NCBI GenBank assembly: GCA_947628185.1
Contig: CANQYW010000001.1
Coordinates: forward strand, 182,489-214,488
Origin: an uncultured Oscillospiraceae bacterium
GTDB taxonomy: Bacteria > Bacillota > Clostridia > Oscillospirales > Oscillospiraceae
Direction: 5' to 3'
Length of the DNA stretch: 32,000 nt
Of this stretch, positions 18,938-32,000 are shown in pieces. How positions within the stretch are numbered: position 1 is the stretch's first letter; each line of letters starts with the position of its first letter. A program made the translations under genes and the position numbers. The notes below the pieces were generated by a model that ran no database searches, was not told the DNA's origin, and saw only the letters and a program-made list of their open reading frames with translations.

Positions 18938-20272
18938 ATGAACCTCATCTATAACATCAAGGACAAGCCCAGTGCCGGTCAGATCCTGCTGTTTGCGGTC
19001 CAGCAGCTTCTGGCCATCATGGCGGCCACGATCGCAGTGCCGGCGGTGGTGAACAGCGGCACCGGCTCCGAGCTCACGGCCTCCGCCGCGATCTTCGGCG
19101 CGGGCGTGGGAACATTCGTGTACCTGATCTTCACCCGCAACTCAAGTCCCGTGTTCCTGGGTTCTTCCTTCGCGTTTATCGGCTCCATGATGAGCGCCTT
19201 CTCCGGCGCGGCCTCCATGGCCCTGGGCTACTGGGGACTCATCATAGGCGCCGTGATGGCCGGCCTCGTCTACGTCGTCCTGGCGCTGGTGGTACACTTC
19301 GCCGGCGTCAAGTGGATAGACAAGCTCATGCCCCCGGTGATCATCGGGCCCACGGTGGCCATCATCGGTCTGAGCCTCGCCGGTAACGCGGTGGGCGACC
19401 TCACCAGTTCCAGCGTCGCGGACAGCGGCTCCGTCTATGTGGCGCTTGTCTGCGGACTCGTGACGCTCTTCGTCACCATCATCGCCTCCACCTACGGCAA
19501 GAAGATGCTGAAACTCATCCCCTTCATCATCGGCATCCTGGCCGGTTACGCCACGGCCTCCGTCTTCGCGCTCATCGGCAACGCCACCGATAATCCCGCA
19601 CTCGTCGTGATAAATTATAGCGCCTTCAAGAACGTCGGTTTCTTCGCCGCCCCGGACTTCACCTTCCTCAAGGGCTCGGCTCTGGGCGACATCTCCGGCT
19701 CCTACCTCGTGACGCTCTTCTCCGCCTATGTGCCTGTGGCGTTCGTTGTCTTCGCTGAGCACCTGGCGGACCACAAGAACCTCTCCACCATCATCGGCAA
19801 GGACCTGCTGGAGGACCCCGGCCTCACAAGGACCCTCCTGGGCGACGGTGTGGGCTCCATGGCCGGCGCGCTCTTCGGAGGCTGCCCCAACACCACCTAC
19901 GGAGAGTCCATCGCATGCGTCGCCATAACCCGAAACGCCTCCGTGGTCAGTATCTGGGGCGCGGCGTGCCTGTGCATCGTCGTCTCCTTCATCAGCCCCC
20001 TCATGGCATTTCTCCAGACTATCCCCTCCTGCGTCATGGGCGGCGTCTGCGTGGCCCTCTACGGGTTCATCGCCATGTCCGGTTTCAAGATGCTCCAGGG
20101 CGTGGACCTCAATAAAAATAGGAACCTCTTTGTTGCCTCCATCATCTTCATCACCGGCGTGGGCGGCCTCTCCGTGAGTTTCGGCCCCGTGGAGATCCGT
20201 ACTGTCGCCTGCTCCCTCATCCTCGGCATCCTCGCTAACGTCCTCCTCAGCCGCGAGAAGGACGAGGAATAA
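18938..20272 (+). CDS. NCS2 family nucleobase (uracil/xanthine-type) permease
   Basis: About 444 aa and multi-TM, with an NCS2-like N-terminus (LLFAVQQLLAIMAATIAVPAVV). Start set at ATG 18938 after GGGGGA. Substrate not determinable by eye. Confidence 0.8.
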   Translation: MNLIYNIKDKPSAGQILLFAVQQLLAIMAATIAVPAVVNSGTGSELTASAAIFGAGVGTFVYLIFTRNSSPVFLGSSFAFIGSMMSAFSGAASMALGYWGLIIGAVMAGLVYVVLALVVHFAGVKWIDKLMPPVIIGPTVAIIGLSLAGNAVGDLTSSSVADSGSVYVALVCGLVTLFVTIIASTYGKKMLKLIPFIIGILAGYATASVFALIGNATDNPALVVINYSAFKNVGFFAAPDFTFLKGSALGDISGSYLVTLFSAYVPVAFVVFAEHLADHKNLSTIIGKDLLEDPGLTRTLLGDGVGSMAGALFGGCPNTTYGESIACVAITRNASVVSIWGAACLCIVVSFISPLMAFLQTIPSCVMGGVCVALYGFIAMSGFKMLQGVDLNKNRNLFVASIIFITGVGGLSVSFGPVEIRTVACSLILGILANVLLSREKDEE

Positions 20273-20293
20273 ACGAATAAATAGTCCGTAAAA

Positions 20294-20343
20294 AGGGGCT
20301 GTGAAAAAACACGCCGGCTGAGACGTGGATTTTCGCAGCCCCT
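20294..20343 (+). terminator. Long imperfect hairpin after the permease gene (possible terminator without a U-tail)
   Basis: AGGGGCTGTGAAAA (20294-20307) pairs with TTTTCGCAGCCCCT (20330-20343), with one G-U pair. The loop has an inner CACG/CGTG pairing. No clean T run follows. Confidence 0.35.
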
Positions 20344-20447
20344 ATCTATATTTCATATATGTAGTTATTCCGCCTCGCACTGTGCTGGGGAGACGCATTT
20401 CGTCAAAATAGCAACGAACTGTTTCATCGAAAATTCGCTCGATTTGC

Positions 20448-20476
20448 TTGCTATTTCTGTGAATATCGATTAAAAT
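20448..20476 (+). promoter_or_regulatory. Putative promoter of the toxin-antitoxin pair
   Basis: TTGCTA (20448-20453), 17-nt spacer, TAAAAT (20471-20476); RBS AAAGGAG lies before ATG 20501. Confidence 0.3.
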
Positions 20477-20500
20477 ATAACACAGAAAGGAGTCGATCCC

Positions 20501-20731
20501 ATGCAAGTTACCGCTACCGAATTCAAGCTGAACCTTGGCAAGTACCTGGAGCTCGTTCTGGCGGAGGACATCTGGATCACCAAAAATGGAAAAACCGTAG
20601 CTAAGCTCATTAACCCGAACATCTCCGCCGTTGACGCCATTTCCGGCGTCCTAGCCGGGAAGGTGCCCGCTGACCTCGACCGTCACGCTCTACGTGAAGA
20701 AAGGCTGTCAAAGTATGCGCTTGATGATTGA
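20501..20731 (+). CDS. Type II antitoxin, Phd/YefM-like
   Basis: 76 aa. The N-terminus VTATEFKLNLGKYLELV...IWITKNGKTVAKLI is typical of Phd/YefM antitoxins. Its stop overlaps the start region of the PIN gene. Confidence 0.75.
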   Translation: MQVTATEFKLNLGKYLELVLAEDIWITKNGKTVAKLINPNISAVDAISGVLAGKVPADLDRHALREERLSKYALDD

Positions 20732-21134
20732 CACGAACATCATCCTGGATGTCCTTATCCGCAGGGAGAATTTCTACGGCAACTCCAAAGCCGTCCTGTC
20801 CCTCTGCGAAGACCGCACTATCCAGGGGCTCGTGCCCGCCTCCGCCGTCACGGATATCTTCTATATCACCCGAAAAGCTCTCGGAAACACAGAGGACACC
20901 TACAGGGTAATTAGTTCGATCCTGAACATCGTCCGTATCCTGACAGTCACCAACGATGACGTCCTGAACGCATTCCAGGTCAAGGCAAAGGATTTTGAAG
21001 ACTGTCTGATGGCGACCTGTGCCAAATCCAACAAGTGCGACGGCATCGTCACACGGAACAAGAAGGATTTCCTGACCTTTGGCGTCACCCTTTATTCACC
21101 TGAGGAACTGCTGCAGCTCTTCGAGGAAACGTAA
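20715..21134 (+). CDS. PIN-domain ribonuclease toxin (VapC-like)
   Basis: MRLMIDTNIILDVL... (first PIN acidic motif) and C-terminal DCLMATCAKSNKCDGIVTRNKKDF. Start at ATG 20715 (alternative 20724) overlaps the antitoxin 3' end. Confidence 0.8.
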   Translation: MRLMIDTNIILDVLIRRENFYGNSKAVLSLCEDRTIQGLVPASAVTDIFYITRKALGNTEDTYRVISSILNIVRILTVTNDDVLNAFQVKAKDFEDCLMATCAKSNKCDGIVTRNKKDFLTFGVTLYSPEELLQLFEET

Positions 21135-21181
21135 GCTGTGCCCACTTTTGCGGCAGCCATACTAACACAAACCAATAATAC

Positions 21182-21213
21182 GAGCCGGGAAGTCAAATCC
21201 CGGCTCATTCTTT
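21182..21213 (+). terminator. Rho-independent terminator after the TA pair
   Basis: 9-bp stem GAGCCGGGA (21182-21190) / TCCCGGCTC (21198-21206), 7-nt loop, ATTCTTT tail. Confidence 0.7.
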
Positions 21214-21255
21214 AGTACACGACTGTAGTTTCTATAAAAAACCTTAATCAAATAC

Positions 21256-21283
21256 TTGACAATACTTTTAGCTGTATTATAAT
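21256..21283 (+). promoter_or_regulatory. Consensus sigma-A type promoter
   Basis: Exact TTGACA (21256-21261), 16-nt spacer, exact TATAAT (21278-21283), about 44 nt upstream of ATG 21327. Confidence 0.6.
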
Positions 21284-21326
21284 AACATTAATTACAATAA
21301 ATTATAAAATTTTGGAGGTGTCTACC

Positions 21327-21692
21327 ATGTTCCCAGAACATATCCCAGCGTTTGACTGTCTCGATATTCCCAGTGAGAGGCACAAGGGACGCAGATACAT
21401 AGACTATGCTGTGGCCCTGATACTCGAAGATCCGAATAAACTGCACAATGTCACAAAAGGCCTCTATGCGGAGATTGCAGAGCACTTTGGGACTACACCG
21501 GGTCGTGTGGAGCATGGTATGCGCAATGTATGCCATGCGGTGTGGAATAATAGCTCCGAACTGCTGAAAGAATGGGCCGTCTATCCTCTGAATGAGAGAC
21601 CGTGTGTGACGCGACTCCTATCCATTCTTGTGTTTCATATTAAGCAGGATGACGCGGAATTTCAGGCTCTATTATGCCAGATTCGGAGGTAA
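21327..21692 (+). CDS. Stand-alone Spo0A C-terminal (Spo0A_C-like) DNA-binding domain protein, copy 1
   Basis: By eye, ...YIDYAVALILEDPNKLHNVTKGLYAEIAEHFGTTPGRVEHGMRNVCHAVW... aligns with the Bacillus Spo0A effector domain (...[50 protein letters not shown]...). No receiver domain. ATG 21327 follows GGAGG at 21314-21318. Confidence 0.7.
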   Translation: MFPEHIPAFDCLDIPSERHKGRRYIDYAVALILEDPNKLHNVTKGLYAEIAEHFGTTPGRVEHGMRNVCHAVWNNSSELLKEWAVYPLNERPCVTRLLSILVFHIKQDDAEFQALLCQIRR

Positions 21693-21698
21693 ATAACC

Positions 21699-22037
21699 AT
21701 GGACGCGGGACATAACTCCATATTAGATCAGCTCGGCATTCGCAACGGAGAATATAAGGGCGGTGCATACACTGAGTATGCCGTTTCTTTGGTGCTCGAG
21801 GATTATAATAAGATGATAAATGTCACAAGGGTCCTCTACCCGGAGGTTGCGGAGCACTTTGGGACCACGCCGAGTTGCGTTGAGAGGGACATGCGCATGG
21901 TCGTTCAGAAAGCGTGGGAGAGAAATCCCGATCTGCTGTGCGAATGGGCGGGCTATCCCTTGAAAAGGAAACCGCCGGTGACAAGGTTTATCGCCATTCT
22001 GGCGGAATACTGCGAGCGGAACGGTATCGAGGTCTAA
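21699..22037 (+). CDS. Stand-alone Spo0A C-terminal (Spo0A_C-like) DNA-binding domain protein, copy 2
   Basis: Paralog of copy 1, roughly half identical by eye: YTEYAVSLVLEDYNKMINVTRVLYPEVAEHFGTTPSCVERDMRMVVQKAW. Its RBS GGAGG lies inside the end of copy 1. Confidence 0.7.
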   Translation: MDAGHNSILDQLGIRNGEYKGGAYTEYAVSLVLEDYNKMINVTRVLYPEVAEHFGTTPSCVERDMRMVVQKAWERNPDLLCEWAGYPLKRKPPVTRFIAILAEYCERNGIEV

Positions 22038-22104
22038 TTATGTGTTTCGGAGCAACATATACCGCCAAGATAGTAGGGCCCGGTCTTCTACTGTGAATCA
22101 AATA

Positions 22105-22706
22105 TTAGTCACAGAGTTTCTCGTTAAACAGTTCATAGTAGTTATCCTCATTTGCATATCTAAGATAATATCGAGTTGCATGATCTTTATGAATAATAAC
22201 ACCAGGATTCCCAACAACGATCGAATGAGACGGAATATCAAAATTAACATAAGCATTAGGGGCTATAAGAACATCATTTCCGATGTTGATATTCCCAACC
22301 ACCATTGCATTCATGCCTATCCAAACACAATTTCCTATAGTTGGGCAACCCTTTCTTTTACCACGGTTTTCCTGACCAACGGTACATCCTTTATGTAAAC
22401 TAACGCAGTTCCCTAAAATTGCCTGCGAGTTCACAGTAATCCCAAAAGCATGTCCTAAATACAAATATTTACCAATATTGGCCGTGTAGAGATCAAAACC
22501 ATATTTCTTCCCAATCACCCTAGACAGAACATGATATATCTTGGATATGATACCTTTGGAAGAATTCGACTTTCTTTGAAGAAATAAATATCTTAGTGAT
22601 GGTTCCTTAACAAAAGCCTTTACCCCCCCCCCAATTTATTTTTCTCAATTTTCTGTCCGTATTCAAATCTATACTGATGGTAATCATATTTGAAATAGCT
22701 TTTCAT
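22105..22706 (-). pseudogene. Hexapeptide-repeat (CysE/WcaB-like) polysaccharide O-acetyltransferase, frame interrupted at a G10 tract
   Basis: ATG 22706 (RBS GGAGG) opens a 28-codon frame ending in TAA immediately after the G10 run. One extra G (or two fewer) joins it to the 22105-22518 ORF. The joined product reads ...KNKLGGGVKAFVKEPSLRYLFLQRKS...VIGKKYGFDLY... plus left-handed beta-helix repeats. Confidence 0.75.
22623..22632 (-). repeat. Homopolymer tract, G10 on the coding (minus) strand
   Basis: Ten consecutive C on the + strand, counted directly. Confidence 0.95.
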
Positions 22707-22793
22707 AACAGAACCTCCGGTTAATAAATTAGCAAAAAGTTTTCTAAGTCCGACCAAATATTGTTGCGTCTATGTAATGGCGCAGTTTATGTT

Positions 22794-23906
22794 TTATAAT
22801 AGGGCCTTGTAGCGATTTAATGCCTCGGCGACTACCTGGTCCATGTCGTAATACTTGTACTCAGCGAGGCGGCCGCCGAAGATCACTTTTGTTTCGGCGG
22901 CGGCAAGTTTTTTGTACTCTGCATAAAGCGCTGTGTTCTTCTCATCGTTCACGGGATAGTAGGGCTCGTCGCCGGGTCTCCACTCTGAGCTGTATTCGCG
23001 GCTGATTACCGTTTTTGGCAGGTCGTTTCCGTTCTCGTCCTTGCCGAACTCAAACCATTTATGCTCAATGATGCGCGTCCAGGGAGTCTCGCGGTCGGTA
23101 TAGTTGACCGCCGCGTTGCCCTGGAAGTTGGGCCTATCGAGGACTTCGGTCTCAAATCGCACCGAACGATATTCCAGCGGGCCAAGCTTATAGCCGAAAT
23201 AAGCGTCGATGGGGCCGGTATAGACCACCGTCTCGGCGAGCTTGTCAAGCTCCGCCTTGTGCTCGAGGTAATCGACACCCAGCCGCACCTCGATGCCCTC
23301 AAGCATTCGTTCCACCATCTTCGTGTAGCCGCCAATGGGGATACCCTGGTAGAGGGCGTTGAAGTAGTTGTTATCAAAGGTGAACCGCACTGGAAGGCGC
23401 TTTATTATGAACGCTGGAAGGTCGCGACAGGCTCTCCCCCACTGCTTTTCCGTGTAGCCCTTAACGAGCTTTTCGTAGATGTCAGTACCCACGAGGGAGA
23501 TGGCCTGTTCCTCAAGATTTTGGGGGTTCGTGATGCCGGCGGCTCTCCGCTGTTCCTCGATCTTCGCCGCCGCCTCCTCCGGCGTCACCACGCCCCACAT
23601 GCGGTTGAAGGTGTACATGTTGAAGGGCAGAGAGTACAGTTCGCCCCTGAAGTTCGCTACGGGACTGTTCGTAAAACGGTTAAATTCGGCGAATTGGTTG
23701 AGATAGTCCCAAACTTCTTTGTTGTTCGTGTGGAAGATGTGCGCGCCGTATTTGTGGACGTTTATACCTTCGATACGCTCAGTATAGACATTCCCGGCGA
23801 TGTGAGGGCGTCTCTCCACGACGAGCACGGACTTTCCGGCGGCGTGGGCGAGGTTTGCGAATGTGGCGCCATAGAGCCCGGCGCCGACGACGAGGTAATT
23901 ATACAT
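22794..23906 (-). CDS. glf: UDP-galactopyranose mutase
   Basis: N-terminal FAD fold MYNYLVVGAGLYGATFA and characteristic ...HKYGAHIFHTN... and ...YYPVND... segments; 370 aa. Confidence 0.95.
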   Translation of the reverse strand: MYNYLVVGAGLYGATFANLAHAAGKSVLVVERRPHIAGNVYTERIEGINVHKYGAHIFHTNNKEVWDYLNQFAEFNRFTNSPVANFRGELYSLPFNMYTFNRMWGVVTPEEAAAKIEEQRRAAGITNPQNLEEQAISLVGTDIYEKLVKGYTEKQWGRACRDLPAFIIKRLPVRFTFDNNYFNALYQGIPIGGYTKMVERMLEGIEVRLGVDYLEHKAELDKLAETVVYTGPIDAYFGYKLGPLEYRSVRFETEVLDRPNFQGNAAVNYTDRETPWTRIIEHKWFEFGKDENGNDLPKTVISREYSSEWRPGDEPYYPVNDEKNTALYAEYKKLAAAETKVIFGGRLAEYKYYDMDQVVAEALNRYKALL

Positions 23907-23928
23907 AGCGATTTTCCTTTACATTTAC

Positions 23929-24984
23929 TCACTTATTTTGTTCTGATTCGACCATCTTCTGATCTAACAACTCGGCCACTCTCCCCTCCTGTCCTCGGGA
24001 AACCATAATGGCATCTTTACTGAAACGGTCTATCTTCCACTGGTTATAACCAGCTCCAACCGTCTCCTGATCGGATCTTAACGTGACGTCGCCGCCAAAC
24101 AGGGCCCTCCCCTTCATCTCGCTGTAGTACAGGGTCTTGCCCTCCACGGCATACATCACCGTTAGTAGATCCCAACTGCTTCGCGTAAAACCATTCTGTT
24201 TATTGCTGTAGAGCTCGTAAGCGGCTCTTACCGGGTTATTTTCACTTAATTCGCCTATTCTTTTCCCGGTCATAACGGATTCGCCTATTTCGTAACCGCA
24301 CCACATGATATGGGCGGGGAAATTTTGTGATACGAACTCGGCCGCCTCAGGCGCCAGACTGATATTGTACTCCCCCTGCGGTTTTGATTCCGGAAACTGC
24401 CCACCCATTATGACGCACAACTTTACTTTCTTCCTCACAAGGTCTACGCCATTTAGCGAACTATGTGAATCTCCCTCAGAGCGCAATAGATCATACAGAT
24501 TATTGAGCGGCCCCACCACTACGATCACCACGCTGCCATTGTCCGCGCCCGCGAGGCATTTGCGATAGACATCTACAGCCGATCCCGCATTTTTGTCTGA
24601 AAGAATATCATTTTCAAAGTTCTCGGATATGTATTTCTGATACCTCGACGTACCCTTGTCCGGGCAATCGGGAGATATCCCTATTGGAATATCAGGTAAA
24701 CCATAGTAGGTGTTTATTGCGTCAATACATGGCGCCGTATAGCCTGTATTACAGGAGCCGACAGCCGCCAAAAGTTCAGCTCTGCCCTCCCGAATGTACG
24801 AATGGAGGATCGCGAGCGCGCCTACGTCGTCCACATCAGTGTCCATATCTGTATCAAAAATAATTTTCACTGTCTCGTCAGGCGTGTATCTATATGCTCC
24901 AAGTTCCTTCCTGGCGCACACTCCCACAAGCAATACAAATATAGACACCGCAAACAATATACCGATAAACCGCTTTTTACTCAT
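23929..24984 (-). CDS. Membrane-anchored or secreted nucleoside-hydrolase-fold (IUNH-like) protein
   Basis: N-terminal hydrophobic anchor FIGILFAVSIFVLLVGV, then the aspartate cluster IFDTDMDTDVDDVGALAILH typical of inosine-uridine nucleoside hydrolase-like proteins. Confidence 0.6.
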   Translation of the reverse strand: MSKKRFIGILFAVSIFVLLVGVCARKELGAYRYTPDETVKIIFDTDMDTDVDDVGALAILHSYIREGRAELLAAVGSCNTGYTAPCIDAINTYYGLPDIPIGISPDCPDKGTSRYQKYISENFENDILSDKNAGSAVDVYRKCLAGADNGSVVIVVVGPLNNLYDLLRSEGDSHSSLNGVDLVRKKVKLCVIMGGQFPESKPQGEYNISLAPEAAEFVSQNFPAHIMWCGYEIGESVMTGKRIGELSENNPVRAAYELYSNKQNGFTRSSWDLLTVMYAVEGKTLYYSEMKGRALFGGDVTLRSDQETVGAGYNQWKIDRFSKDAIMVSRGQEGRVAELLDQKMVESEQNK

Positions 24985-25005
24985 ACAACTTGCTCCGATG
25001 TACGC

Positions 25006-26430
25006 TCACAGTCTCCCGCGATACTTTGAGATCTTTTGAAGGATCTCAGTTAGTTCCCTCCGATTTGCGACCAGGTATACGCAATACACCGCAAAATATA
25101 TGATCCCGGCTTTCCAGAGGCTGAAACACATATTTGCCGCGATAAACACCGCGGACAGGACGCACTCCCAGGCCGTGACTCCGTCCATGGAGATCCGGTA
25201 GTTTCTCGATATCGCCATATTCGCTAAGATGCTCCTCAGCGCCACGCAAAACACCATTGCCAGCACCAATGCGTTCAAACTTTTAACGACAAACACACTC
25301 ACAGCGCAGAGCACGGTGCTCGTCACGAGGGAAACTGCGTTTATCGCCAAAAGGCTCCTCTCTTTTCGGAGAACTTTCAGGTATGTGGAGTACAAAAGCT
25401 GCATTTTTCCGTCAAAAACGCACACCGGAAGGAGCCAGGACATGTAACCGAGGCTCACCTCGTACTGGGGCAGCCACATGCCCAGGAGTTTCCTCATGGG
25501 TATGAACAGCACCATGACGAAACAGAGAAGAAAACTCGAATTCTTCCTGAGTGACACAAAGAGCTGTTTTGCCTTGTCCGGCTCGATCTGTCTCAGGGCC
25601 GGGAACATGACCATGCTCACCTGTGATATGAACTGTAAAAAGAAGTTCGTCAGGGAAATGGCAAAGGACAATAGCCCAAACTCCGTTATGGTCTGGGTCA
25701 TGTCCACAAAGATCCGCCCGATGCCGAGGATGAGACTGCTGGCTATATTGGATACTGTCAGATTTATCCCGACCCGGATATTTATCCAAGCCTCCCGCAG
25801 GGACCTACCGGGTGATACGCCGCCCGCGAAGATGAAACTCCGGCTCTTTATGAGGCAATAGAGCGACGCCGCAAGCTGGGACACCACAAAAAGGACGATA
25901 TAGATCTCGAACCGCCTCTGGCGCGTAAAGAGCAGAAAGGCGATGCAGAGGATGAAGGCCACCTTGGAGATGATAGTCGAGAGCGAGTAGACCCTCGTCC
26001 TGTTCGCCGCCTGATAGACGTACCCCCAGAACCAACAGGTGTTGGCAAGGAGCAGATAGACGGCTATGCAGATCCACACGAGCCGGCGCTCCGGCGAGGC
26101 AGTGGTGAGCACGACGACCGGCAGCAGGACGGCGCAGATAACCGTCTGCCAGAGCAGCATGAGCCGGTACTGGGAACCTATCAGCGGCTTATCAAGCTCG
26201 TCAAGCTCCTTCCCTCCGTAGCGAAGATATATCCCGTCCGACATCCCAAAATGGAAGAACCCCACATAACCGCTGTAGAACATGAATAGCTGCCAATAGG
26301 AGAATTGCTCCACGCCCAAAAGTTTCGGTATGAGCAGTGACGTCAGGACGCTGGCCACAAGGCTTATGGTCTGCGCCGCGAAGGCGACGGCAACATTTTT
26401 CGCAAATCTCGATGCTTTAGATTCAGACAT
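25006..26430 (-). CDS. wzx: Polysaccharide flippase (Wzx, MOP superfamily)
   Basis: 474 aa and about 12-14 TM. N-terminus ...FAKNVAVAFAAQTISLVASVLTSLLIPKLLGVEQFSYWQLF... is typical of Wzx-type flippases, and the gene lies in a glycan locus. Confidence 0.8.
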   Translation of the reverse strand: MSESKASRFAKNVAVAFAAQTISLVASVLTSLLIPKLLGVEQFSYWQLFMFYSGYVGFFHFGMSDGIYLRYGGKELDELDKPLIGSQYRLMLLWQTVICAVLLPVVVLTTASPERRLVWICIAVYLLLANTCWFWGYVYQAANRTRVYSLSTIISKVAFILCIAFLLFTRQRRFEIYIVLFVVSQLAASLYCLIKSRSFIFAGGVSPGRSLREAWINIRVGINLTVSNIASSLILGIGRIFVDMTQTITEFGLLSFAISLTNFFLQFISQVSMVMFPALRQIEPDKAKQLFVSLRKNSSFLLCFVMVLFIPMRKLLGMWLPQYEVSLGYMSWLLPVCVFDGKMQLLYSTYLKVLRKERSLLAINAVSLVTSTVLCAVSVFVVKSLNALVLAMVFCVALRSILANMAISRNYRISMDGVTAWECVLSAVFIAANMCFSLWKAGIIYFAVYCVYLVANRRELTEILQKISKYRGRL

Positions 26431-26435
26431 TTAAT

Positions 26436-28340
26436 TTATCCCTTATTAAACCGGCGTTTCAGTATAAAATAGATGCGCTCATAGGGCAGGGGCAATTTTA
26501 TAAGGCGTTTCATAAAGCCTATCTTCCACATGCTGGATATAAAATCTCCCTTGAGCCGCCCCGGGTCTCTCAAGTATTCCCGGAGTTTTGCGGGGCGGGC
26601 GATAAGCATTATCAAATTGTCAAACACCCTGAAGTCGCCCCACAAATTTGCCTGCCAGAGGGTGGGGCTGAGACACATGTCCGTGAAGTTATACCAAGCG
26701 GCGTCCGGCGGGATGGGTGGGAGCCCGCCCGGGAATGACGCGGCCAAGTCCCTCACGAACTCCAGCGCGCCGCTCTGGTACTCCCGCATTATAGATATCT
26801 CGTCACAGCACTTTCCATCGCGGCTCTCGTACTCGAAGTCATACATCACCGGCGCGGGTCTCCCGTCCACCTTGACGAAACGCTTGACGGAGCCGTGCTG
26901 ACCTAAGAAGATCGACTCAAAGATCGGCACGAAACAGCTGAGCTTATTCACGAACTCCTCGTTCTTGCCCCGCTCGTGGAGATAGCCCGAGGCCCGGATG
27001 ACGCCATTGTTCACCAGCGGCGCGTCGGGTGAGACGCCCACATAGTACCCCCGCACCTCGATGCCGAGACCGGACTCGCGTATGAGCTCCTGGAGGCCGT
27101 TCTGCATCGTCCCGTGGCGGCCTATGTCCACCACCGCTATGCGCTCCGCCATATGGAGGGAGGAGATATACTCCAAAAGCGCGTCGTACTCGTCTTTGGA
27201 GTTCTCCACCACCAGATCGCGGACGGAGTCATAGAACTTGGACACCCTATCTGAGGTCTTAAATGTCCCGTGCTCAAAAACCTCGTCCAAATCTACCCCG
27301 CAGGCGGCGGCGCGGTCCCGGCAGTCCTCCGGCTCCAGGCCCAGCCTCAGTATGAATGTGCGGAGGGTCATCCGGTCCTGGAGGGTTATATTCTTGAATA
27401 TCTCATGGAGCTCCGGGTGTTTCCAGATGAGGGGCACGGTGTAAGACCGGCGGGAACAGTAGAGGTAGTGGGTGGAGAACCCCTCCCCGTACACCGCGTC
27501 AAAAGCCTGTTTCATGGTGTAACCGTCCCGGGACATGAAATATACGTCCCTGATGCCGTCCCCCTCCAGCCGCCGCGCCAGCCACTGGGTGAAACCCGCT
27601 AAGAGCGGGCCGAAGGTTTTAGCGCCCAAGCTGGCGTATGTACCCATCCCGGGGGACACGTTCTCTATAGCGGCGGCGAGAGTGCGGTAAATGAGGGCGC
27701 TCTGGGGCGCCAGCCCCTTCGGGACGGCGCAGAGCTCCTTCCTGGCGCCGGGTACGCGCCGCGCGTGTATCCCCATGGAGCGCGGGATGAGAAAGTCGCT
27801 CTTTCTGTTGTCCCCAAAGTGCGCGAGCTCTCCGGCGGAGATGCCAAGGTCCTTCAATACCGCCCGGTAGAGGGATCCGTCGGCCTTCGTGCGTGACTCC
27901 TCGCAGGAGACGTAGAGCCGCTTATAGCCCCGGACGCCGCACTTCTCCAGCATCTTCCCGATGAACGACGAGGGGAGGTACATGTCCGATATTAGCACCA
28001 CCGTCCGGCCCTCCTCCAGGCAGCGGTCAAAAAGGCCCACATACTCAGGATCAGGCCGGCAGCCCATGAGCTCAAAGCTCAGTTCCCTCTCCATGAGCTC
28101 CCCCGCCGGGGCACCAAGCTGAGAGCCAAGTTCGGCGTAAATATCCGCAATCGTGACAGGCGTTCTGGACTTCGCCGCGGCGGCCCTCTCCGCCACGATA
28201 CGCAGCTCGGCAAACCCCGCCGGGACGTCCCCGCAGCAGTGCTCCATCATGCGGAAGATGTCCGTGGGTCTCGCGACGCTGCGTTTGATGAGGGTGTCGA
28301 AGACATCAAAGGAGACGTATGTCTGCTTAATTTTTTGCAT
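26436..28340 (-). CDS. HAD-superfamily hydrolase domain protein with a large uncharacterised C-terminal region (COG5610-like, recalled)
   Basis: HAD motif I FDVFDTLIKR, motif II LISD, and motif III/IV K...GDNRKSD in the first 200 aa. The remaining 430 aa are unassigned. Confidence 0.55.
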   Translation of the reverse strand: MQKIKQTYVSFDVFDTLIKRSVARPTDIFRMMEHCCGDVPAGFAELRIVAERAAAAKSRTPVTIADIYAELGSQLGAPAGELMERELSFELMGCRPDPEYVGLFDRCLEEGRTVVLISDMYLPSSFIGKMLEKCGVRGYKRLYVSCEESRTKADGSLYRAVLKDLGISAGELAHFGDNRKSDFLIPRSMGIHARRVPGARKELCAVPKGLAPQSALIYRTLAAAIENVSPGMGTYASLGAKTFGPLLAGFTQWLARRLEGDGIRDVYFMSRDGYTMKQAFDAVYGEGFSTHYLYCSRRSYTVPLIWKHPELHEIFKNITLQDRMTLRTFILRLGLEPEDCRDRAAACGVDLDEVFEHGTFKTSDRVSKFYDSVRDLVVENSKDEYDALLEYISSLHMAERIAVVDIGRHGTMQNGLQELIRESGLGIEVRGYYVGVSPDAPLVNNGVIRASGYLHERGKNEEFVNKLSCFVPIFESIFLGQHGSVKRFVKVDGRPAPVMYDFEYESRDGKCCDEISIMREYQSGALEFVRDLAASFPGGLPPIPPDAAWYNFTDMCLSPTLWQANLWGDFRVFDNLIMLIARPAKLREYLRDPGRLKGDFISSMWKIGFMKRLIKLPLPYERIYFILKRRFNKG

Positions 28341-29649
28341 AGGCTTGCGGCCTCCTCTTCACTGGTACTATGCGAAATCTGATTTGTTTTTCCACAACAA
28401 GTTTGTAAAGTATGTAGGTGATCATGATTTTGAATACAAAACCAAAAGATACGATGTTGGAATAGAAGAAGTTATTATACATATACAGAATGGCACAATA
28501 ATAAATTTGGCAGAAAATAATAATAGGAAGATTACTCCGTTTCTTTTTTGTGTACTCATAGAAAACCGAGTATATAAGCGAGAATAAAGCGTGAAGAACG
28601 AAAACGCCAATCATTCCAAAGTCGTAATGGTAATCACGTAACGCCGTATATATGTTCCCTGTACTTACACCGGCAACAGACCTAAACTCCTTATGGAAAA
28701 TATAACTTTCTATATCAACGATTCCCACACGTCTAAGTGCGTTGAGTAGGGAATAAAACGTTTCTTTTCCCCAGATATCTGACTTCATAGGCGGGTTATT
28801 CAAATAAAGGTCAAGGTTGACAACGCCTGTTCCCATGTAATGCGCCGTATAATCGAGAAGTGTAGCATCGCTCACGCGGCCCACAAATTCCTTTACAAAA
28901 TAAAAAAACCACGCCGCGACAACCACAATCAGCATTACACGCATAAGAAAGCCAAATTTATAAGTTTTATACTTTCCCAAGCGTTGAATGCGTGTCATGT
29001 GGAACAGAAAGATACCGGCAATTATGTTTGACAGTATAGAAAACCGCCCACTGGTAAGCAAACTGGACAGGACTGTAAGGGCCAAAAACACAACCTGTAA
29101 AATTATTTCACGGACCTTGAACGAGCGGAAGAACTTGATCAGGTTGAACATATACAAAATACATAATGCCTGCAACAGATTCATCGTCAGCCGCAGCCAC
29201 AACGGGTACTGCGCGTCCACATCGGTGGAATATCCATGCGCGTTTCGATAGGAGGTCATGATCTGCCCGAACATTCCCGATGTTCCCGCCACGCGAGTGA
29301 TCTCCCGCAGCTGAGCGATAATCACAACAACCGCCACGAGCAGCGCAAAAAATGTAAAGCCTTTTGGAATTGGGCTTGACTTGTCCTGCACAGGACGGAT
29401 CCGAATATGCTGAAACGCGCTGCGACAGAACATCCCAATAACCACGCTCAGCGTCATGCACGAACCAATGAGCACGGTCGTCTGTAAGCTAAAAGAATAG
29501 TCGAGGTCAAACAGGATATAGATACTCAAACTGCACGCAAAAATAAAACCGAGAATCATCATCGTGGACGGTGCGAAGAAGTCCCGCCCGGTCAGGTAAT
29601 AGCTGATGTAAAAGAGCGCGATCAGCCATATAAATAAAACTATCTGCAA
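28327..29649 (-). CDS. wzy: Oligosaccharide repeat-unit polymerase (Wzy-like)
   Basis: 440 aa, about 10-12 TM, very AT-rich, no soluble domain, placed between glycosyltransferases and wzx. TTG start after GGAAGGTGGG. Confidence 0.65.
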   Translation of the reverse strand: MQIVLFIWLIALFYISYYLTGRDFFAPSTMMILGFIFACSLSIYILFDLDYSFSLQTTVLIGSCMTLSVVIGMFCRSAFQHIRIRPVQDKSSPIPKGFTFFALLVAVVVIIAQLREITRVAGTSGMFGQIMTSYRNAHGYSTDVDAQYPLWLRLTMNLLQALCILYMFNLIKFFRSFKVREIILQVVFLALTVLSSLLTSGRFSILSNIIAGIFLFHMTRIQRLGKYKTYKFGFLMRVMLIVVVAAWFFYFVKEFVGRVSDATLLDYTAHYMGTGVVNLDLYLNNPPMKSDIWGKETFYSLLNALRRVGIVDIESYIFHKEFRSVAGVSTGNIYTALRDYHYDFGMIGVFVLHALFSLIYSVFYEYTKKKRSNLPIIIFCQIYYCAILYMYNNFFYSNIVSFGFVFKIMITYILYKLVVEKQIRFRIVPVKRRPQAYAKN

Positions 29650-29677
29650 GACATTCCCACCTTCCGTCTACTCACCC

Positions 29678-30217
29678 TTATCCCCTGGCAAACGCCCTAT
29701 AAAACCCATCCCGTTTCGCGTCCAAGCGGTCTTTGCGGAACCTTTGGGCCTCCGCGAAATTCCGACGAGCTACGCGGAGCCGCAGGTCCGGCTCCAGCAT
29801 CTTCCGCAAAATATCCGCCAACTTCCGGTAGTCCCCTCTCGGGAACAAAAACTCCCGCTCGATTAGCTCGTAATTCCCGCCCACGTCGCAGGCGGCCACG
29901 GGACACGCCCGGCTCATGGCCTCCACTATCGAGCGGCAGAGGCCCTCGCTGAGGCTCGGGTGGACGTAGACGTCTATCCCGTCGTACCACTCAAAGGTCC
30001 TGTCGTGGGGCAGCAGGCCCAGGAGTTTCACCTGGTCCTCCACGCCCAGACGCCGGGATATATCCTCTATCCGCCCGGGGTCCCCGCCGCCGATGATCTG
30101 ATACTCTATCCCCGTAATGCCCTCGTCCTTCAGCTCTTTTATCGCCCTAATGACGGTCTCGTGGCCCTTGAACTTTAAATTCACATGGGCCGCCGTCCCG
30201 ATTATCAACTTGCTCAT
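29678..30217 (-). CDS. Free-standing GT4 (GT-B fold) C-terminal half-domain protein
   Basis: MSKLIIGTAAHVNLKFKGHETVIRAI...EGLCRSIVEAM (EX7E motif) is a paralog of the C-terminal half of the upstream GT4. ATG 30217 has RBS GAGGAAGG 5 nt upstream; the alternative ATG 30244 overlaps the upstream stop. No N-terminal Rossmann half is encoded. Confidence 0.7.
   Translation of the reverse strand: MSKLIIGTAAHVNLKFKGHETVIRAIKELKDEGITGIEYQIIGGGDPGRIEDISRRLGVEDQVKLLGLLPHDRTFEWYDGIDVYVHPSLSEGLCRSIVEAMSRACPVAACDVGGNYELIEREFLFPRGDYRKLADILRKMLEPDLRLRVARRNFAEAQRFRKDRLDAKRDGFYRAFARG
29894..29937 (-). repeat. 44-nt perfect direct repeat, copy 1 (EX7E-coding segment)
   Basis: CACGCCCGGCTCATGGCCTCCACTATCGAGCGGCAGAGGCCCTC is identical to 30467-30510. 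Confidence 0.9.
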
Positions 30218-30466
30218 AAAAACCTTCCTCAAATCGTATATCATGACCTCATATAGAGGTTGTAGAATTCATCCCGCTTGCGGTCAAGGACCGTCTTCTG
30301 GTACTTGTGGGCGCGCTCAAAGTTAAGTTTCGCGCTCCGGGCCTGCTCATCTTTCTCCATCATCCGCTTTATGCTCCCGGCGAGCCCATTTATATCGCCG
30401 GCCCTAAAGAGGCAGTCGGAGTGGACGAGCTCGTAGTTCCCGCCCACGTCGCTGGCGATCACGGGG

Positions 30467-30510
30467 CACGCCCGGCTCATGGCCTCCACTATCGAGCGGC
30501 AGAGGCCCTC
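30467..30510 (-). repeat. 44-nt perfect direct repeat, copy 2 (EX7E-coding segment)
   Basis: Identical to 29894-29937; the flanking ~115 nt are also far more similar than the rest of the paralogs. Confidence 0.9.
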
Positions 30511-30777
30511 CTGGTAGCTCGGCTGGACGTAGACGTCCACGGTATCCATCCACTGGGCCACCTGCTCGTGGGGCAGCGCCCCGATGATATGTACCTGGTC
30601 CTCGACACCCATCCGCCTACTCACACTTCTCAAATATTCGCCGGTCCCGATCCCGATGAGGTGATACTCGATGTTCGTGATCCCCTCCCGTTTCAGCCGG
30701 GCGAGGGCCTTTATGACGGTGTCCTGGCCTTTCCAGCGCACATCCAACAGCGCGGCCGTGCCTATGATTAGCTTATA

Positions 30778-30786
30778 CCCCCCCCC
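30778..30786 (-). repeat. Homopolymer tract, G9 on the coding (minus) strand
   Basis: Nine consecutive C on the + strand, counted directly. Confidence 0.95.
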
Positions 30787-31490
30787 GCGATTTTCTTCAG
30801 CCGGTTCTCCAGGATCTCGCTGTCCATATCATCCAGTTCCACATCGGAGCAGCCTATTGAGAGCCCACCGCATGGGTAGCGCTTTTGCAGGGCCTCGTCC
30901 GTCACGTACACGGCGTAGGGCACGTCCTTTAACACGCGGCGGCACTTCAATTCCCTCGGTCCCGCCACCAGCTTGCCCCGCAGGCTGTGGTACCAGAGGC
31001 CCTCCCAGGCGAACCCGGTGACCTCCACCAGGTAGACCTTGCGGTATTTCCGGGCGTACTTCAGGGCCGTACTCGTGTACACGTTGCCGACGGAGCGGAT
31101 GATCACCCGGTCCGCTTTCCTCACTTCCCGCTCTATCGTGCTGTCGATCTGGCGCCGGTACGCCAAGTTCAGGCAGTTCGCCGCCGGACGGTAGATGTCA
31201 GGCAGCGCCACCAGCGCGGAGCGGCGGGCGTCGTAGAAATTGAATCTCTCCGCCGCCTCCTGGGGGTCGTATATCCTCTGTTCACGCCTGAGAATGACCG
31301 TCAAATGGTCGCAATAGCTCCTGTAGCGTTCCCAGATATGCTCGTTGAAGTTGCTGTCGGTGTAGGCGTTCCCCTCCGTGTCGAATTTCCACCGGGACCC
31401 GCCCTGGATGAATAGCAGATTCATGCGGCAATACCTCCGGTAATGGTACTGCGGCATGAAACCGCCTGGGTGTACGGTAAATATACGAAT

Positions 31491-32000
31491 TCAAGTTCGT
31501 ATATTACCCCCCCCCGCCCCGAATTTCTTGGCGGTGTACTTCGTCTGGATCACTTTATATATCCTCCCCGCGTTGTAGGCGAAACGCATACCGAGGTATG
31601 TACACCTCGCCCCGTAAAGATTCTTCGCCCTGAGTTCCGGGGACTTGTCCCGGGCCACCACGTCGCGGTATTTAAGCAGCGAATCCCAGACCTTCTCCAG
31701 GGAGTCCGTGTCCTCCGGCGGGATTTGGATGAACACCTGGTAATTCACCGAGAAGGCCCTGGCGTAGGCGGCATCTTTAAGCGTCTCGTCATAAGCCATG
31801 ATATCCCCGACGACCCTCTCGCCCACCTTGACGCATATGAGTTTCGCCGGGGTGAACTTCATATGCACTATGCTGTCCGCGCGGACACGGTAGGCGTATG
31901 TGCGGCACTCCAGGAGCGCGATTTTTTCCGCGCGCATGAAGGCGCGGTGGGTGGTGGCGGCGTCCTCAAAGAGCCAGCCCGTTGGGAAACGCAGTCCATC
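31491..32000 (-). CDS. GT2 family glycosyltransferase, C-terminal part (partial, 5' end beyond the window)
   Basis: The frame is open to the window edge (...DGLRFPTGWLFEDAATTHRAFMRAEKIALLE...), typical of the region after the GT-A catalytic core. It ends ...KKFGAGGGNIRT*. Confidence 0.65.
   Translation of the reverse strand, partial: DGLRFPTGWLFEDAATTHRAFMRAEKIALLECRTYAYRVRADSIVHMKFTPAKLICVKVGERVVGDIMAYDETLKDAAYARAFSVNYQVFIQIPPEDTDSLEKVWDSLLKYRDVVARDKSPELRAKNLYGARCTYLGMRFAYNAGRIYKVIQTKYTAKKFGAGGGNIRT
31507..31515 (-). repeat. Homopolymer tract, G9 (then C, then G4) on the coding (minus) strand
   Basis: Nine consecutive C on the + strand, followed by G and CCCC, counted directly. Confidence 0.95.

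What the first reader, a model, noticed from the sequence alone, without database searches (positions are those of the whole stretch)
30241..31424. G9 tract lies exactly at the linker between the two Rossmann halves of a GT4 glycosyltransferase
Seen: the N-terminal half ends ...ENRLKKIAGGGIS*. With 10 G the protein reads ...KKIAGGGYKLIIGTAALLDVRWKGQD..., continuing into a C-terminal half with the EX7E motif (EGLCRSIVE). The G run itself encodes the Gly-Gly-Gly linker. The OFF state therefore does not make a random truncation. It makes a complete, potentially foldable acceptor-side domain of about 218 aa and drops the donor-binding domain. The downstream C-half ORF has only a TTG and no obvious RBS, so it probably depends on the fusion frame.
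Basis: partly seen in the sequence, partly recalled or inferred. Interest (0 to 1): 0.72.

Follow-up and report, generated by a model that had tools for sequence, protein, structure and literature searches.

The report
Poly-G switch at a glycosyltransferase hinge
A run of nine G's sits in the flexible linker between the two halves of a sugar-adding enzyme in a gut-type bacterium's surface-polysaccharide operon; it acts as a slippage-prone on/off switch, it recurs at the same linker in distant relatives, and it travels with a spare stand-alone copy of the enzyme's second half.

Summary
On the minus strand, G9 (30778-30786) ends a 218-aa N-half (...KKIAGGGIS*). G10 or G7 gives a 394-aa protein that matches a large family of about 395-aa glycosyltransferases end to end. 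AlphaFold, Foldseek and Pfam place the tract-coded glycines in the loop just before the first strand of the C-terminal Rossmann domain. That loop is the family's main internal indel site.

The hinge position recurs. Homopolymer frameshifts at this hinge appear in at least six lineages, some with only 35-40% GC. One strain shows G9 (intact) versus G7 (split) with no other difference over 2.1 kb. N-half, C1 and C2 all have dN/dS of about 0.1.

It has orthologues in the two nearest tract-bearing lineages. It is a pseudogene in a sister lineage whose tract has decayed to G5, and it is absent from another tract-less relative.

Most likely this is a slipped-strand phase-variation switch. A possible twist (probability about 0.35) is that the freed N-half pairs with C2. 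No read-level data were available, and the window's own strain shows only G9.

The parts
31434..31438 (-). Ribosome-binding site GGAGG, 9 nt upstream of the N-half ATG
   Evidence: Read directly from the sequence. The family N-termini all begin M-x-LLFIQGG, which supports ATG 31424 over ATG 31457.
30768..31424 (-). N-terminal (acceptor-side) half as assembled: 218 codons plus a TAA stop (...KKIAGGGIS*)
   Evidence: No Pfam hit. It is the N domain of a GT-B fold by AlphaFold and Foldseek. Predicted alone it gives pLDDT 86.
30778..30786 (-). G9 homopolymer (C9 on the + strand). It codes Gly214-216 in the interdomain loop. G10 or G7 is in frame; G9 and G8 are out of frame.
   Evidence: A second assembly of the same strain (L008) also has G9.
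30241..30777 (-). C1: the C-terminal (donor-side) Rossmann half, open for 178 codons in the +1G frame, with no start signals of its own. The EX7E motif is at 30484-30510. The TGA stop is at 30241-30243.
   Evidence: Pfam Glyco_trans_1_4 8.7e-25 and Glycos_transf_1 3.8e-24 on the fused protein.
29678..30217 (-). C2: a stand-alone paralogue of the C-half (179 aa, MSKLIIGTAA...). It has its own RBS GAGGAAGG (30223-30230) and starts exactly at the first strand of the domain.
   Evidence: 54% identical to C1. Pfam Glycos_transf_1. Stand-alone orthologues P0144 and P0145 of 181 aa. dN/dS about 0.10. It keeps 36 of 44 highly conserved family columns.
22623..22632 (-). Second in-ORF tract of the locus: G10 in codons 26-28 of a hexapeptide acetyltransferase (ORF 22105-22706). 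It is out of frame as assembled; G11 or G8 restores a 200-aa protein.
   Evidence: Pfam Hexapep on the restored protein. Poly-G also lies at the 5' end of or just upstream of Hexapep or candidate acetyltransferase ORFs in L011 and L013.
31507..31515 (-). Third tract: G9 seven codons before the stop of the upstream GT2-like gene (31491-32000, which runs off the window) and 83 nt upstream of the N-half ATG.
   Evidence: Its length changes only the tail of the upstream protein. G8 would extend that protein to a TGA overlapping the N-half ATG.

Best explanation
The G9 run is a slipped-strand (simple-sequence-repeat) contingency switch. It sits in the interdomain linker of a 394-aa GT4-like GT-B glycosyltransferase, inside a surface-polysaccharide operon (GT2, this gene, C2, Wzy-like, flippase, Glf, acetyltransferase).

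Shown:
- G10 or G7 reads through to one N-C1 enzyme. G9 (as assembled) or G8 stops 1-2 codons after the tract, which releases a 218-aa N-half. C1 is then left untranslated because it has no start signals.
- The tract lies in the loop before the first strand of the C domain.
- Homopolymer frameshifts at this same hinge occur in at least six lineages of the family.
- One strain shows G9 (intact) versus G7 (split) with no other difference.
- N, C1 and C2 are all under purifying selection.

Inferred:
- Replication slippage toggles the gene reversibly within populations.
- With the second switch in the acetyltransferase, this would give several surface-glycan variants.
- The most economical reason for the hinge position is that this loop is the one place in the family that tolerates both indels and a glycine run.
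- The co-conserved stand-alone C2 gene suggests that in this clade the OFF state may not be a plain null (see novel case).
For: Frame logic:
- Translations for each tract length.
- The fused protein matches 753 homologues. The best are 392-405 aa, at up to 67% identity and about 100% coverage.

Hinge position:
- Pfam start at residue 221.
- AlphaFold H203-214, loop 215-218, E219-224, pLDDT 93.5.
- Foldseek full-length hits to GT4 enzymes (SPS, MshA, PglA, HepE, BshA, PimA) at TM 0.6-0.68.
- The only multi-residue internal indel site in the alignment.

Recurrence at the hinge:
- L011 has G9 in frame (395 aa), L012 has G7 and L013 has G10.
- L019 has GA-G9.
- L015/L016 have G9 and L017/L018 have G10.
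- L020 has A8.
- Ten N-half-only database proteins end in, or run through, a Gly run in the hinge columns.

Length polymorphism:
- L012 versus L011 shows 0 mismatches over 2102 nt and one 2-nt gap, in the tract.

Selection and DNA-level mechanism:
- OFF alleles occupy both wrong frames while C1 stays open in all of them. This fits DNA slippage with frequent reversion.
- dN/dS for L011 versus L013 is 0.085 for N, 0.103 for C1 and 0.099 for C2.

Non-chance:
- G8+ runs are far above shuffle expectation in the AT-rich loci.

Operon context:
- Neighbouring gene families.
- No promoter-like or terminator-like sites in 29500-32000.
Against: - No read-level data were available. The window's own strain shows G9 in both available assemblies, and the second has only 1.7x coverage and may come from the same cohort.
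- The number of G9 runs in the GC-rich window is not significant against shuffles.
- The OFF alleles were found partly by searching for N-half-only proteins, so the apparent excess of OFF states is biased by how I looked.
- Only one in-frame tract allele (L011) was seen. Only 1 of 119 close full-length relatives has GGG at the hinge, and it is coded by an interrupted run.
- The G7 versus G9 difference comes from metagenome assemblies, not isolates.
Confidence: 0.78

Rival explanations
1. Phase-variable domain swap. The switch is two-state rather than on/off. In frame, the cell makes the covalent N-C1 enzyme. Out of frame, the released N-half pairs non-covalently with the separately translated C2 half, as in the split GT-B enzymes Alg14/Alg13 and EpsE/EpsF. 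That would form an enzyme with the same acceptor side but a different donor side, so the sugar added changes instead of being lost.
For: - C2 starts exactly at the domain boundary and has its own RBS and ATG.
- Stand-alone 181-aa orthologues sit directly after C1 in the two nearest tract-bearing lineages.
- C2 has dN/dS of about 0.10, the same as N and C1.
- C2 keeps the EX7E motif, 36 of 44 highly conserved family columns and the terminal LDxKRDxFY helix motif. It carries consistent derived changes L227V and V289T.
- In the five-member clade, C2 is intact in the three tract-bearing lineages. It is a pseudogene in L001, with an in-frame stop at codon 39, damaged motifs and a truncation. L001's tract has decayed to GGAGGGGGC. 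C2 is absent from tract-less L002.
- A lone GT-B C domain has no acceptor side, and the OFF-state N-half is the only orphan N domain seen in the locus.
- Separately expressed GT-B halves can self-assemble into active enzymes (PMC10937113). Alg13's C-terminal helix docks it to Alg14, and the split EpsE/EpsF pair acts in exopolysaccharide synthesis (PMC8993221).
Against: - Hinge tracts also occur in lineages with no C2 (L015-L018, L020), so C2 is not needed to explain the position.
- There is no interaction or activity evidence.
- Only three intact C2 genes and one pseudogene are known. An exhaustive profile search found no wider C2-type family.
- The two co-losses may trace to one recombination event that brought in the DUF4422 cassette.
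- The premature stop could reduce C2 expression through polarity.
Confidence: 0.35
2. Expression-level recoding. The G run makes RNA polymerase or the ribosome slip, so one allele yields both the 218-aa N-half and some full-length protein at a fixed ratio. This would resemble the two dnaX products made at a homopolymer at a domain boundary.
For: - G GGG GGG fits the formal X XXY YYZ pattern.
- A -1 slip on the G9 mRNA would give the fused frame (worked out).
- Homopolymer runs of 9 or more are known slippage sites for RNA polymerase (my own knowledge, mostly for A/T runs).
Against: - OFF alleles in different lineages need shifts in opposite directions. The window and L013 need +1 nt; L015 and L017 need -1 nt. 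A dedicated recoding signal would keep one frame relation.
- I did not look for a stimulatory downstream RNA structure.
- Tract length differs at the DNA level between otherwise identical sequences.
- Efficient slippage on G runs is not established, to my knowledge.
Confidence: 0.08
3. There is no switch. The G9 is a fixed inactivating frameshift (a young pseudogene) or a homopolymer sequencing or assembly error in a metagenome-assembled genome.
For: - Both assemblies of this strain show the same out-of-frame length.
- Long G runs are error-prone in short-read data.
- The run count in the window is not significant against shuffles.
Against: - C1 remains open for 178 codons in the window. It is also open in every OFF allele of five other lineages.
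- dN/dS of about 0.1 for both halves.
- The tract is kept at the hinge in genomes of 35-40% GC, where such runs are far above chance.
- An in-frame allele exists (L011).
- A second gene of the same operon carries the same kind of tract.
Confidence: 0.07

Closest known systems
Homopolymer-controlled, phase-variable glycosyltransferases of mucosal pathogens: Helicobacter pylori futA/futB/futC and beta-1,3-galT poly-C tracts (PMC2806470); Campylobacter jejuni and Neisseria poly-G genes for lipooligosaccharide, capsule and pilin glycans (PMC5953494 and PMC3068675 appeared; I cite them from title and abstract only, and the gene details are from my own knowledge)
   Same: An in-ORF G/C homopolymer of 7-16 nt. 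Length changes move the frame between an intact and a truncated glycosyltransferase. Several such genes sit in one glycan locus, giving combinatorial surface variation.
   Different: - The host here looks like a high-GC, Bacillota/Clostridia-type gut anaerobe. That is inferred from gene content. In that group the phase variation covered by a recent review is by invertible DNA (PMC11868660).
- The tract sits at the GT-B interdomain hinge and recurs there across lineages that are only about 40-70% identical.
- A stand-alone spare C-half gene accompanies it in one clade. I know of no description of either feature, and five targeted full-text searches found none.
Split GT-B glycosyltransferases: eukaryotic Alg14/Alg13 and bacterial EpsE/EpsF (Cps14F/G type) (PMC8993221)
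   Same: The N-terminal (acceptor or membrane) half and the C-terminal (donor) half are separate polypeptides that form one active site. The C-half's terminal helix docks it to the N-half. The bacterial pairs act in exopolysaccharide loci. Splits and re-fusions have happened repeatedly in evolution.
   Different: - Those belong to the MurG/GT28-like lineage (Pfam Alg14 and Glyco_tran_28_C). This protein hits Glycos_transf_1 (GT4-like).
- Their split is fixed, whereas here it would be toggled by a mutable tract.
- Here the C-half that would work in trans (C2) is a paralogue of the one that is fused (C1). Pairing is not shown.
Engineered auto-assembling and domain-swapped GT-B enzymes (PMC10937113)
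   Same: Isolated N and C Rossmann halves fold on their own and can reassemble into active heterodimers. The N half sets acceptor specificity and the C half sets donor specificity.
   Different: That is a laboratory construct in GT1-family enzymes. Nothing shows that nature uses it as a switch.
dnaX tau/gamma: a homopolymer-site frameshift at a domain boundary that yields a shorter functional product (my own knowledge)
   Same: A slippery homopolymer is placed so that the truncated product ends cleanly at a domain border.
   Different: dnaX slips during translation or transcription at a fixed ratio. Here the tract length itself differs in the DNA, and OFF alleles occupy both wrong frames.

Membership tests
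GT4-like GT-B glycosyltransferase (Pfam Glycos_transf_1 clan) | C-terminal Glycos_transf_1 / Glyco_trans_1_4 domain above the curated cut-off | tested here: met
   85.6 and 88.1 bits against cut-offs of 26.4 and 27, over residues 221-365 of the fused protein. C2 also passes.
GT4-like GT-B glycosyltransferase (Pfam Glycos_transf_1 clan) | EX7E motif in the C domain | tested here: met
   E306-GLCRSIV-E314. Both glutamates are invariant in 25 aligned members, and the motif is kept in C2.
GT4-like GT-B glycosyltransferase (Pfam Glycos_transf_1 clan) | Two Rossmann-like domains joined by a linker (GT-B fold) | tested here: met
   AlphaFold pLDDT 93.5 and pTM 0.87. Foldseek full-length matches to SPS 6kih, MshA 3c4q, PglA 8dqd, HepE, BshA and PimA at TM 0.6-0.68.
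GT4-like GT-B glycosyltransferase (Pfam Glycos_transf_1 clan) | N-terminal domain recognised by a GT4 N-domain profile (Glyco_transf_4 / Glyco_trans_4_x) | tested here: not met
   No Pfam hit for residues 1-218 at E <= 0.01-0.1. PDB profile matches also start at about position 215. The N domain is GT-B-like by fold only, so CAZy GT4 membership is likely but not shown for the whole protein.
GT4-like GT-B glycosyltransferase (Pfam Glycos_transf_1 clan) | Retaining transfer from a nucleotide sugar to a defined acceptor | not testable with these tools
   The best NCBIfam matches are far below the equivalog cut-offs (69 bits against 400 for EpsE). Donor and acceptor are unknown.
Simple-sequence-repeat contingency locus (slipped-strand phase variation) | Homopolymer of at least 7-8 nt inside the ORF whose +/-1 changes switch between an intact and a truncated product | tested here: met
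   G9 at 30778-30786. G10 or G7 gives 394 aa; G8, G9 and G11 give 216-218 aa.
Simple-sequence-repeat contingency locus (slipped-strand phase variation) | Tract-length polymorphism between otherwise identical sequences | tested here: inconclusive
   Met in the orthologue: L011 has G9, L012 has G7, with 0 mismatches over 2102 nt, and L019 is a third allele. Not seen for the window's own strain, where both the window and L008 have G9.
Simple-sequence-repeat contingency locus (slipped-strand phase variation) | Both sides of the tract stay functional, that is, under purifying selection and without secondary lesions | tested here: met
   C1 is open in all OFF alleles. dN/dS is 0.085 for N and 0.103 for C1 (synonymous sites are near saturation, so the ratio is approximate).
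Simple-sequence-repeat contingency locus (slipped-strand phase variation) | Within-population heterogeneity and a measurable, reversible switching rate | not testable with these tools
   No reads or isolates were available.
Split GT-B heterodimer (Alg14/Alg13, EpsE/EpsF type) | Separate genes for the N and C halves, each with its own translation signals | tested here: met
   The N-half has GGAGG plus ATG and a stop right after the tract. C2 has GAGGAAGG plus ATG at the domain border. C2 orthologues also have an RBS and ATG.
Split GT-B heterodimer (Alg14/Alg13, EpsE/EpsF type) | Homology to Alg14 / Glyco_tran_28_C profiles | tested here: not met
   Pfam hits are Glycos_transf_1 and Glyco_trans_1_4 only. 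It is not a member of that family. At most it works like one.
Split GT-B heterodimer (Alg14/Alg13, EpsE/EpsF type) | Physical association of the two halves and activity only as a pair | not testable with these tools
   The only indirect evidence is that C2 keeps the family-conserved terminal helix motif LDxKRDxFY and co-varies with the tract.

The most novel reading that the evidence does not exclude
A phase-variable domain swap. The hinge tract toggles the N-terminal acceptor half between being covalently fused to donor half C1 and being released to pair in trans with the separately encoded paralogue C2. One slippage event would then exchange the sugar (or linkage) added to the polysaccharide rather than merely deleting it. 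The co-conservation of N, tract, C1 and C2, and the decay of C2 in a lineage whose tract has decayed to a G5 that fixes the fused frame, are what one would expect under this model.
Probability: 0.35. Interest if true: 0.85.

Novelty: new variant of a known kind. Interest (0 to 1): 0.62.

Why it matters
Homopolymer phase variation of surface glycans is textbook for a few mucosal pathogens. It is little documented in uncultured gut anaerobes. In Clostridia-type bacteria the phase variation covered by a recent review relies on DNA inversion (PMC11868660).

This case shows a whole polysaccharide locus with two in-ORF poly-G switches and a third tract. It also shows that in one glycosyltransferase family the switch has settled repeatedly at the interdomain hinge.

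If the spare C-half really partners with the released N-half, it would be a natural example of modular GT-B domain exchange driven by a one-base slip. That would be a new way to diversify glycans, relevant to phage and immune evasion, and a ready-made design for engineering glycosyltransferases.

It is also a practical warning for annotation. Such genes are called as two or three 'fragments' in metagenome-assembled genomes, as happened here (229, 168 and 179 aa).

Tried and rejected
- Genome-collection scan with the fused protein: only two unrelated loci at 26-27% identity. The window's species is not among the representatives.
- JGI metagenome scan with the C2 alignment: one unrelated hit.
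- Look-up of the window's own contig through the 229-aa product: not on record. I could therefore not see the locus beyond base 32000 or name the organism. Cluster look-ups carried no names.
- Exhaustive profile search with C2 against 1.84 billion representatives: the top hits are ordinary full-length family members, with no wider stand-alone C2 family.
- The 200-307-aa hits to C2 are C1-type fragments starting at internal Met, not C2-type proteins.
- Promoter and terminator scan of 29500-32000: nothing found.
- Idea that stop codons right after the tract in both wrong frames are a special adaptation: rejected. They come from the conserved K-L-I codons (CTA ATx, CTG ATT), which tract-less relatives share.
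- Programmed ribosomal frameshifting: considered unlikely, because OFF alleles need shifts in opposite directions.
- A chimeric N+C2 single-chain AlphaFold run: considered and not run. With 54% identity to C1 it would fold as GT-B regardless, so it could not discriminate.
- Chance test of G9 runs in the window: not significant on its own.
Full report
**1. What is in the window**

The gene is on the minus strand. The + strand carries C9 at 30778-30786, which is G9 on the coding strand.

- An ATG at 31424 lies 9 nt after a GGAGG (31434-31438). It opens an ORF that ends ...ENRLKKIAGGGIS* at 30768, giving 218 aa.
- With one more G in silico, the reading continues ...KKIAGGGYKLIIGTAALLDVRWKGQD... 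to a stop at 30241, giving 394 aa.
- G7 would also be in frame. G8 and G11 stop one codon after the tract.
- The downstream half (C1) has only an internal TTG and no purine-rich ribosome-binding site.

**2. Is the fused reading real?**

The 394-aa protein finds 753 database homologues. The best are 392-405 aa, up to 67% identical, and cover about 100% of the query. The restored frame is therefore the ancestral gene.

- Pfam places Glyco_trans_1_4 at 221-357 and Glycos_transf_1 at 230-365.
- The N-half has no Pfam or NCBIfam family.
- An AlphaFold model built on 25 family members is confident (pLDDT 93.5, pTM 0.87).
- Foldseek aligns the model over its full length to GT4 GT-B enzymes: sucrose-phosphate synthase, MshA, PglA, HepE, BshA and PimA, at TM 0.6-0.68.
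- E306 and E314 of the EX7E motif are invariant.

**3. Where exactly is the tract?**

- In the model, helix 203-214 is followed by loop 215-218 and then strand 219-224, the first strand of the C-terminal Rossmann domain. The tract codes Gly214-216.
- In the family alignment this is the only multi-residue internal indel site. It is flanked by the conserved R-x-x-K-I and K-x-i-i-G-T-A-A-f-L-D-V-x-W-K-G-Q blocks.
- Predicted alone, the 218-aa N-half keeps the same fold (pLDDT 86, pTM 0.81). Residues 1-190 score 80-97, and confidence falls only for 191-218.

The N-domain core therefore ends near residue 190. Residues 191-218 are the interdomain linker, and the tract lies at the linker's C-terminal end. 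One caveat rests on general GT-B knowledge: the last helix of such enzymes, here 377-393, normally packs back on the N domain, and the N-half lacks it. I had no coordinates to check contacts.

**4. Is it chance?**

Within this 58% GC window the number of G9/C9 matches is not significant against dinucleotide shuffles. There are 4 matches against 1.58 +/- 1.75 expected, and 11 of 100 shuffles reach 4.

The window has only three runs longer than 7: lengths 9, 9 and 10. All three are G on the coding strand of the polysaccharide locus. The strong evidence, however, is comparative.

**5. Relatives**

*The two closest full-length homologues lack the tract.* L001 has CGA GGA GGG GGC, and L002-L005 have AAA GGA GGA ACT.

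*Searching with the downstream gene C2 (section 6) led to orthologous loci in AT-rich genomes.*
- L011 (GC 0.36) has G9 at the same hinge, in frame. It codes a 395-aa protein reading ...KKIMGGGNKLIIGTAA.
- L012 comes from another sample and is identical to L011 over 2102 nt except for a 2-nt gap in the tract. It has G7, so it is split into 215 and 170 aa.
- L019 is 99.5% identical to L011 and has ATG-A-G9, also out of frame.
- L013 (GC 0.395) has G10, out of frame, with C1 fully open in the other frame.

*A profile search with three N-halves returned many N-half-only proteins.* Their ends fall in the hinge columns and contain glycine runs...RIVGGGKE...TYKGGGH in three clusters...YLRGGQISS......TYGGGATESS... 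and ...NNDGGVGINP....

*The DNA confirms hinge tracts in three more lineages.* The first two are only about 42% identical to the window protein.
- L015/L016 have G9, and L017/L018 have G10. C1 is open in another frame in both.
- L020 has an A8 run, made from the conserved Lys-Lys codons, at the same hinge.

G8+ runs are far above chance in the AT-rich loci. L013 has 8 matches against 0.23 expected, with 0 of 200 shuffles reaching that. L011 has 3 against 0.17, with 2 of 200.

OFF alleles need +1 nt in some lineages and -1 nt in others. This fits DNA slippage and does not fit a dedicated recoding signal.

For L011 versus L013, dN/dS is 0.085 (N) and 0.103 (C1). Synonymous sites are near saturation, so these ratios are approximate. 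They still show genes kept in working order rather than pseudogenes.

One bias should be kept in mind. OFF alleles were partly found because I searched for truncated proteins. Only one in-frame tract allele was seen, and only 1 of 119 close full-length relatives has GGG at the hinge.

**6.

Directly after C1 lies a second C-half gene, C2 (29678-30217). It starts MSKLIIGTAA..., exactly at the first strand of the domain, and has its own GAGGAAGG site and ATG.

- C2 is 54% identical to C1.
- It has stand-alone 181-aa orthologues at the same place in L011/L012/L019 and in L013, at 71% and 64% identity.
- Its dN/dS is 0.099.
- It keeps the EX7E motif, the terminal LDxKRDxFY motif and 36 of 44 highly conserved family columns. 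It carries consistent derived changes L227V and V289T.

On a neighbour-joining tree the five closest proteins group as (window,(P0002,(L011,(L013,P0001)))).
- The three tract-bearing lineages have intact C2.
- P0001's locus (L001), whose tract has decayed to G5, carries a C2 pseudogene. It has an in-frame stop at codon 39, damaged motifs, and a truncation after residue 113 by a different downstream cassette.
- P0002's loci have neither the tract nor C2.

This pattern is what one expects if C2 is useful only when a free N-half can be made. The more distant hinge-tract lineages (L015-L018, L020) have no C2, so C2 cannot be the general reason for the hinge position. An exhaustive profile search found no wider C2-type family.

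**7. Mechanism**

*Most likely (about 0.78).* This is a slipped-strand contingency switch. Replication slippage changes the run length, so the gene alternates between a full N-C1 enzyme and a released N-half with untranslated C1.

The operon contains a GT2-like gene, this gene, C2, a Wzy-like protein, a flippase, UDP-galactopyranose mutase and a hexapeptide acetyltransferase. No promoter-like or terminator-like sites fall within 29500-32000. The acetyltransferase carries its own G10, out of frame as assembled, and G11 or G8 restores 200 aa. The locus could therefore display several glycan variants.

The simplest reason for the hinge position is tolerance. It is the one loop in the family that accepts both indels and a glycine run.

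*A more novel reading (about 0.35).* In the window's clade the released N-half may pair in trans with C2, which would swap the donor domain rather than lose the activity. There is precedent that GT-B halves work in trans:
- Alg14/Alg13 and the bacterial exopolysaccharide pair EpsE/EpsF, where the C-half's terminal helix docks the partner (PMC8993221).
- Engineered self-assembling GT-B domains (PMC10937113).

*Less likely readings.* Expression-level slippage giving two products from one allele (about 0.08). A fixed pseudogene or an assembly error (about 0.07).

**8. Comparison with what is known**

The mechanism is the same as for poly-C and poly-G glycosyltransferase genes of Helicobacter, Campylobacter and Neisseria (PMC2806470). 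Three things differ:
- The host type. Gene content (rplI-dnaB-tilS-hpt-ftsH neighbourhood) suggests a Bacillota/Clostridia-like anaerobe; this is my inference. A recent review of phase variation mentions only invertible DNA for clostridia (PMC11868660).
- The recurrent placement at the GT-B hinge.
- The accompanying spare C-half gene.

It is not a member of the Alg13/14 family, because the Pfam hits are Glycos_transf_1. At most it may work like one.

**9. Limits**

- No reads or isolates were available.
- The window's own strain shows G9 in both assemblies, and the second (L008) has only 1.7x coverage.
- The organism and the polysaccharide are unknown.
- Only a handful of metagenomic contigs support the C2 story.
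- No model coordinates were available to check interdomain contacts.

Noticed in passing
window 22623-22632 (gene 22105-22706, minus strand): A G10 tract lies in codons 26-28 of a hexapeptide-repeat acetyltransferase and stops it at MKSY...KNKLGGG*. G11 or G8 restores a 200-aa protein with a Pfam Hexapep hit. The related loci also carry poly-G next to such genes. In L011 a G8 (9687-9694) lies about 110 nt upstream of the called Hexapep ORF (9802-10212). In L013 a T9G9 (5027-5044) lies near the 5' end of a 132-aa ORF that has no Pfam hit.
   Followed up: partly
window 31507-31515: A third G9 tract lies seven codons before the stop of the upstream GT2-like gene and 83 nt before the N-half ATG. 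G9 and G10 change only the tail. G8 would extend the upstream protein by 29 residues to a TGA that overlaps the N-half ATG (ATGA), which is a translational-coupling arrangement.
   Followed up: partly
window 31481-31504: A perfect 9-bp inverted repeat, ATATACGAA-N6-TTCGTATAT, lies 2 nt downstream of the third tract in the spacer before the glycosyltransferase gene. It has no T-run, so it does not look like an intrinsic terminator. It could be an operator or an RNA hairpin.
   Followed up: no
window 30484-30527 vs 29921-29964 (region around the EX7E motif of C1 and C2): C1 and C2 are about 60% identical at the DNA level overall. They share a patch of about 100 nt at 86-97% identity that includes a 44-nt perfect run. 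The same region is only 71-77% identical in L011 and L013. This suggests recent gene conversion between the two C-halves in this lineage.
   Followed up: partly
L008:555-560 vs window 30199-30243: A second assembly of the same strain has a 45-bp deletion. It removes the last nine codons of C1, part of its terminal helix motif, and the spacer before the C2 ribosome-binding site. Coverage is only 1.7x, so this may be an assembly artefact.
   Followed up: no
L001:6654-6992: A C2 pseudogene lies in the lineage whose hinge tract has decayed to GGAGGGGGC. It is 73% identical to the L013 C2 over residues 1-113. It has an in-frame TGA at codon 39 and several damaged motifs, and it is cut off by a DUF4422 cassette.
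   Followed up: yes
L013:1976-1983: A G8 tract lies in the 206-nt spacer between C1 and C2. It is followed by a promoter-like TTGACG-N16-ATTAAT ahead of the C2 start. In that lineage C2 may have its own, possibly tract-modulated, promoter.
   Followed up: no
L011:6135-6142, L013:1306-1313, L020:5626-5633: The conserved Lys-Lys-Ile codons just before the hinge form an A8 run in AT-rich relatives. In L020 this A8 is itself the frameshift site (A9 would be in frame). In L011 and L013 it sits a few bases from the G tract.
   Followed up: partly
window 20000-32000: The polysaccharide locus is a compositional mosaic: GC is 0.37 for the acetyltransferase, 0.43 for the Wzy-like gene and 0.59 for the glycosyltransferase, against about 0.60-0.65 in the housekeeping half of the window. 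This suggests cassette exchange. A PIN-like toxin ORF (20694-21134; assigned by eye from its sequence, not checked against a profile library) and a small ORF lie at the locus border.
   Followed up: no
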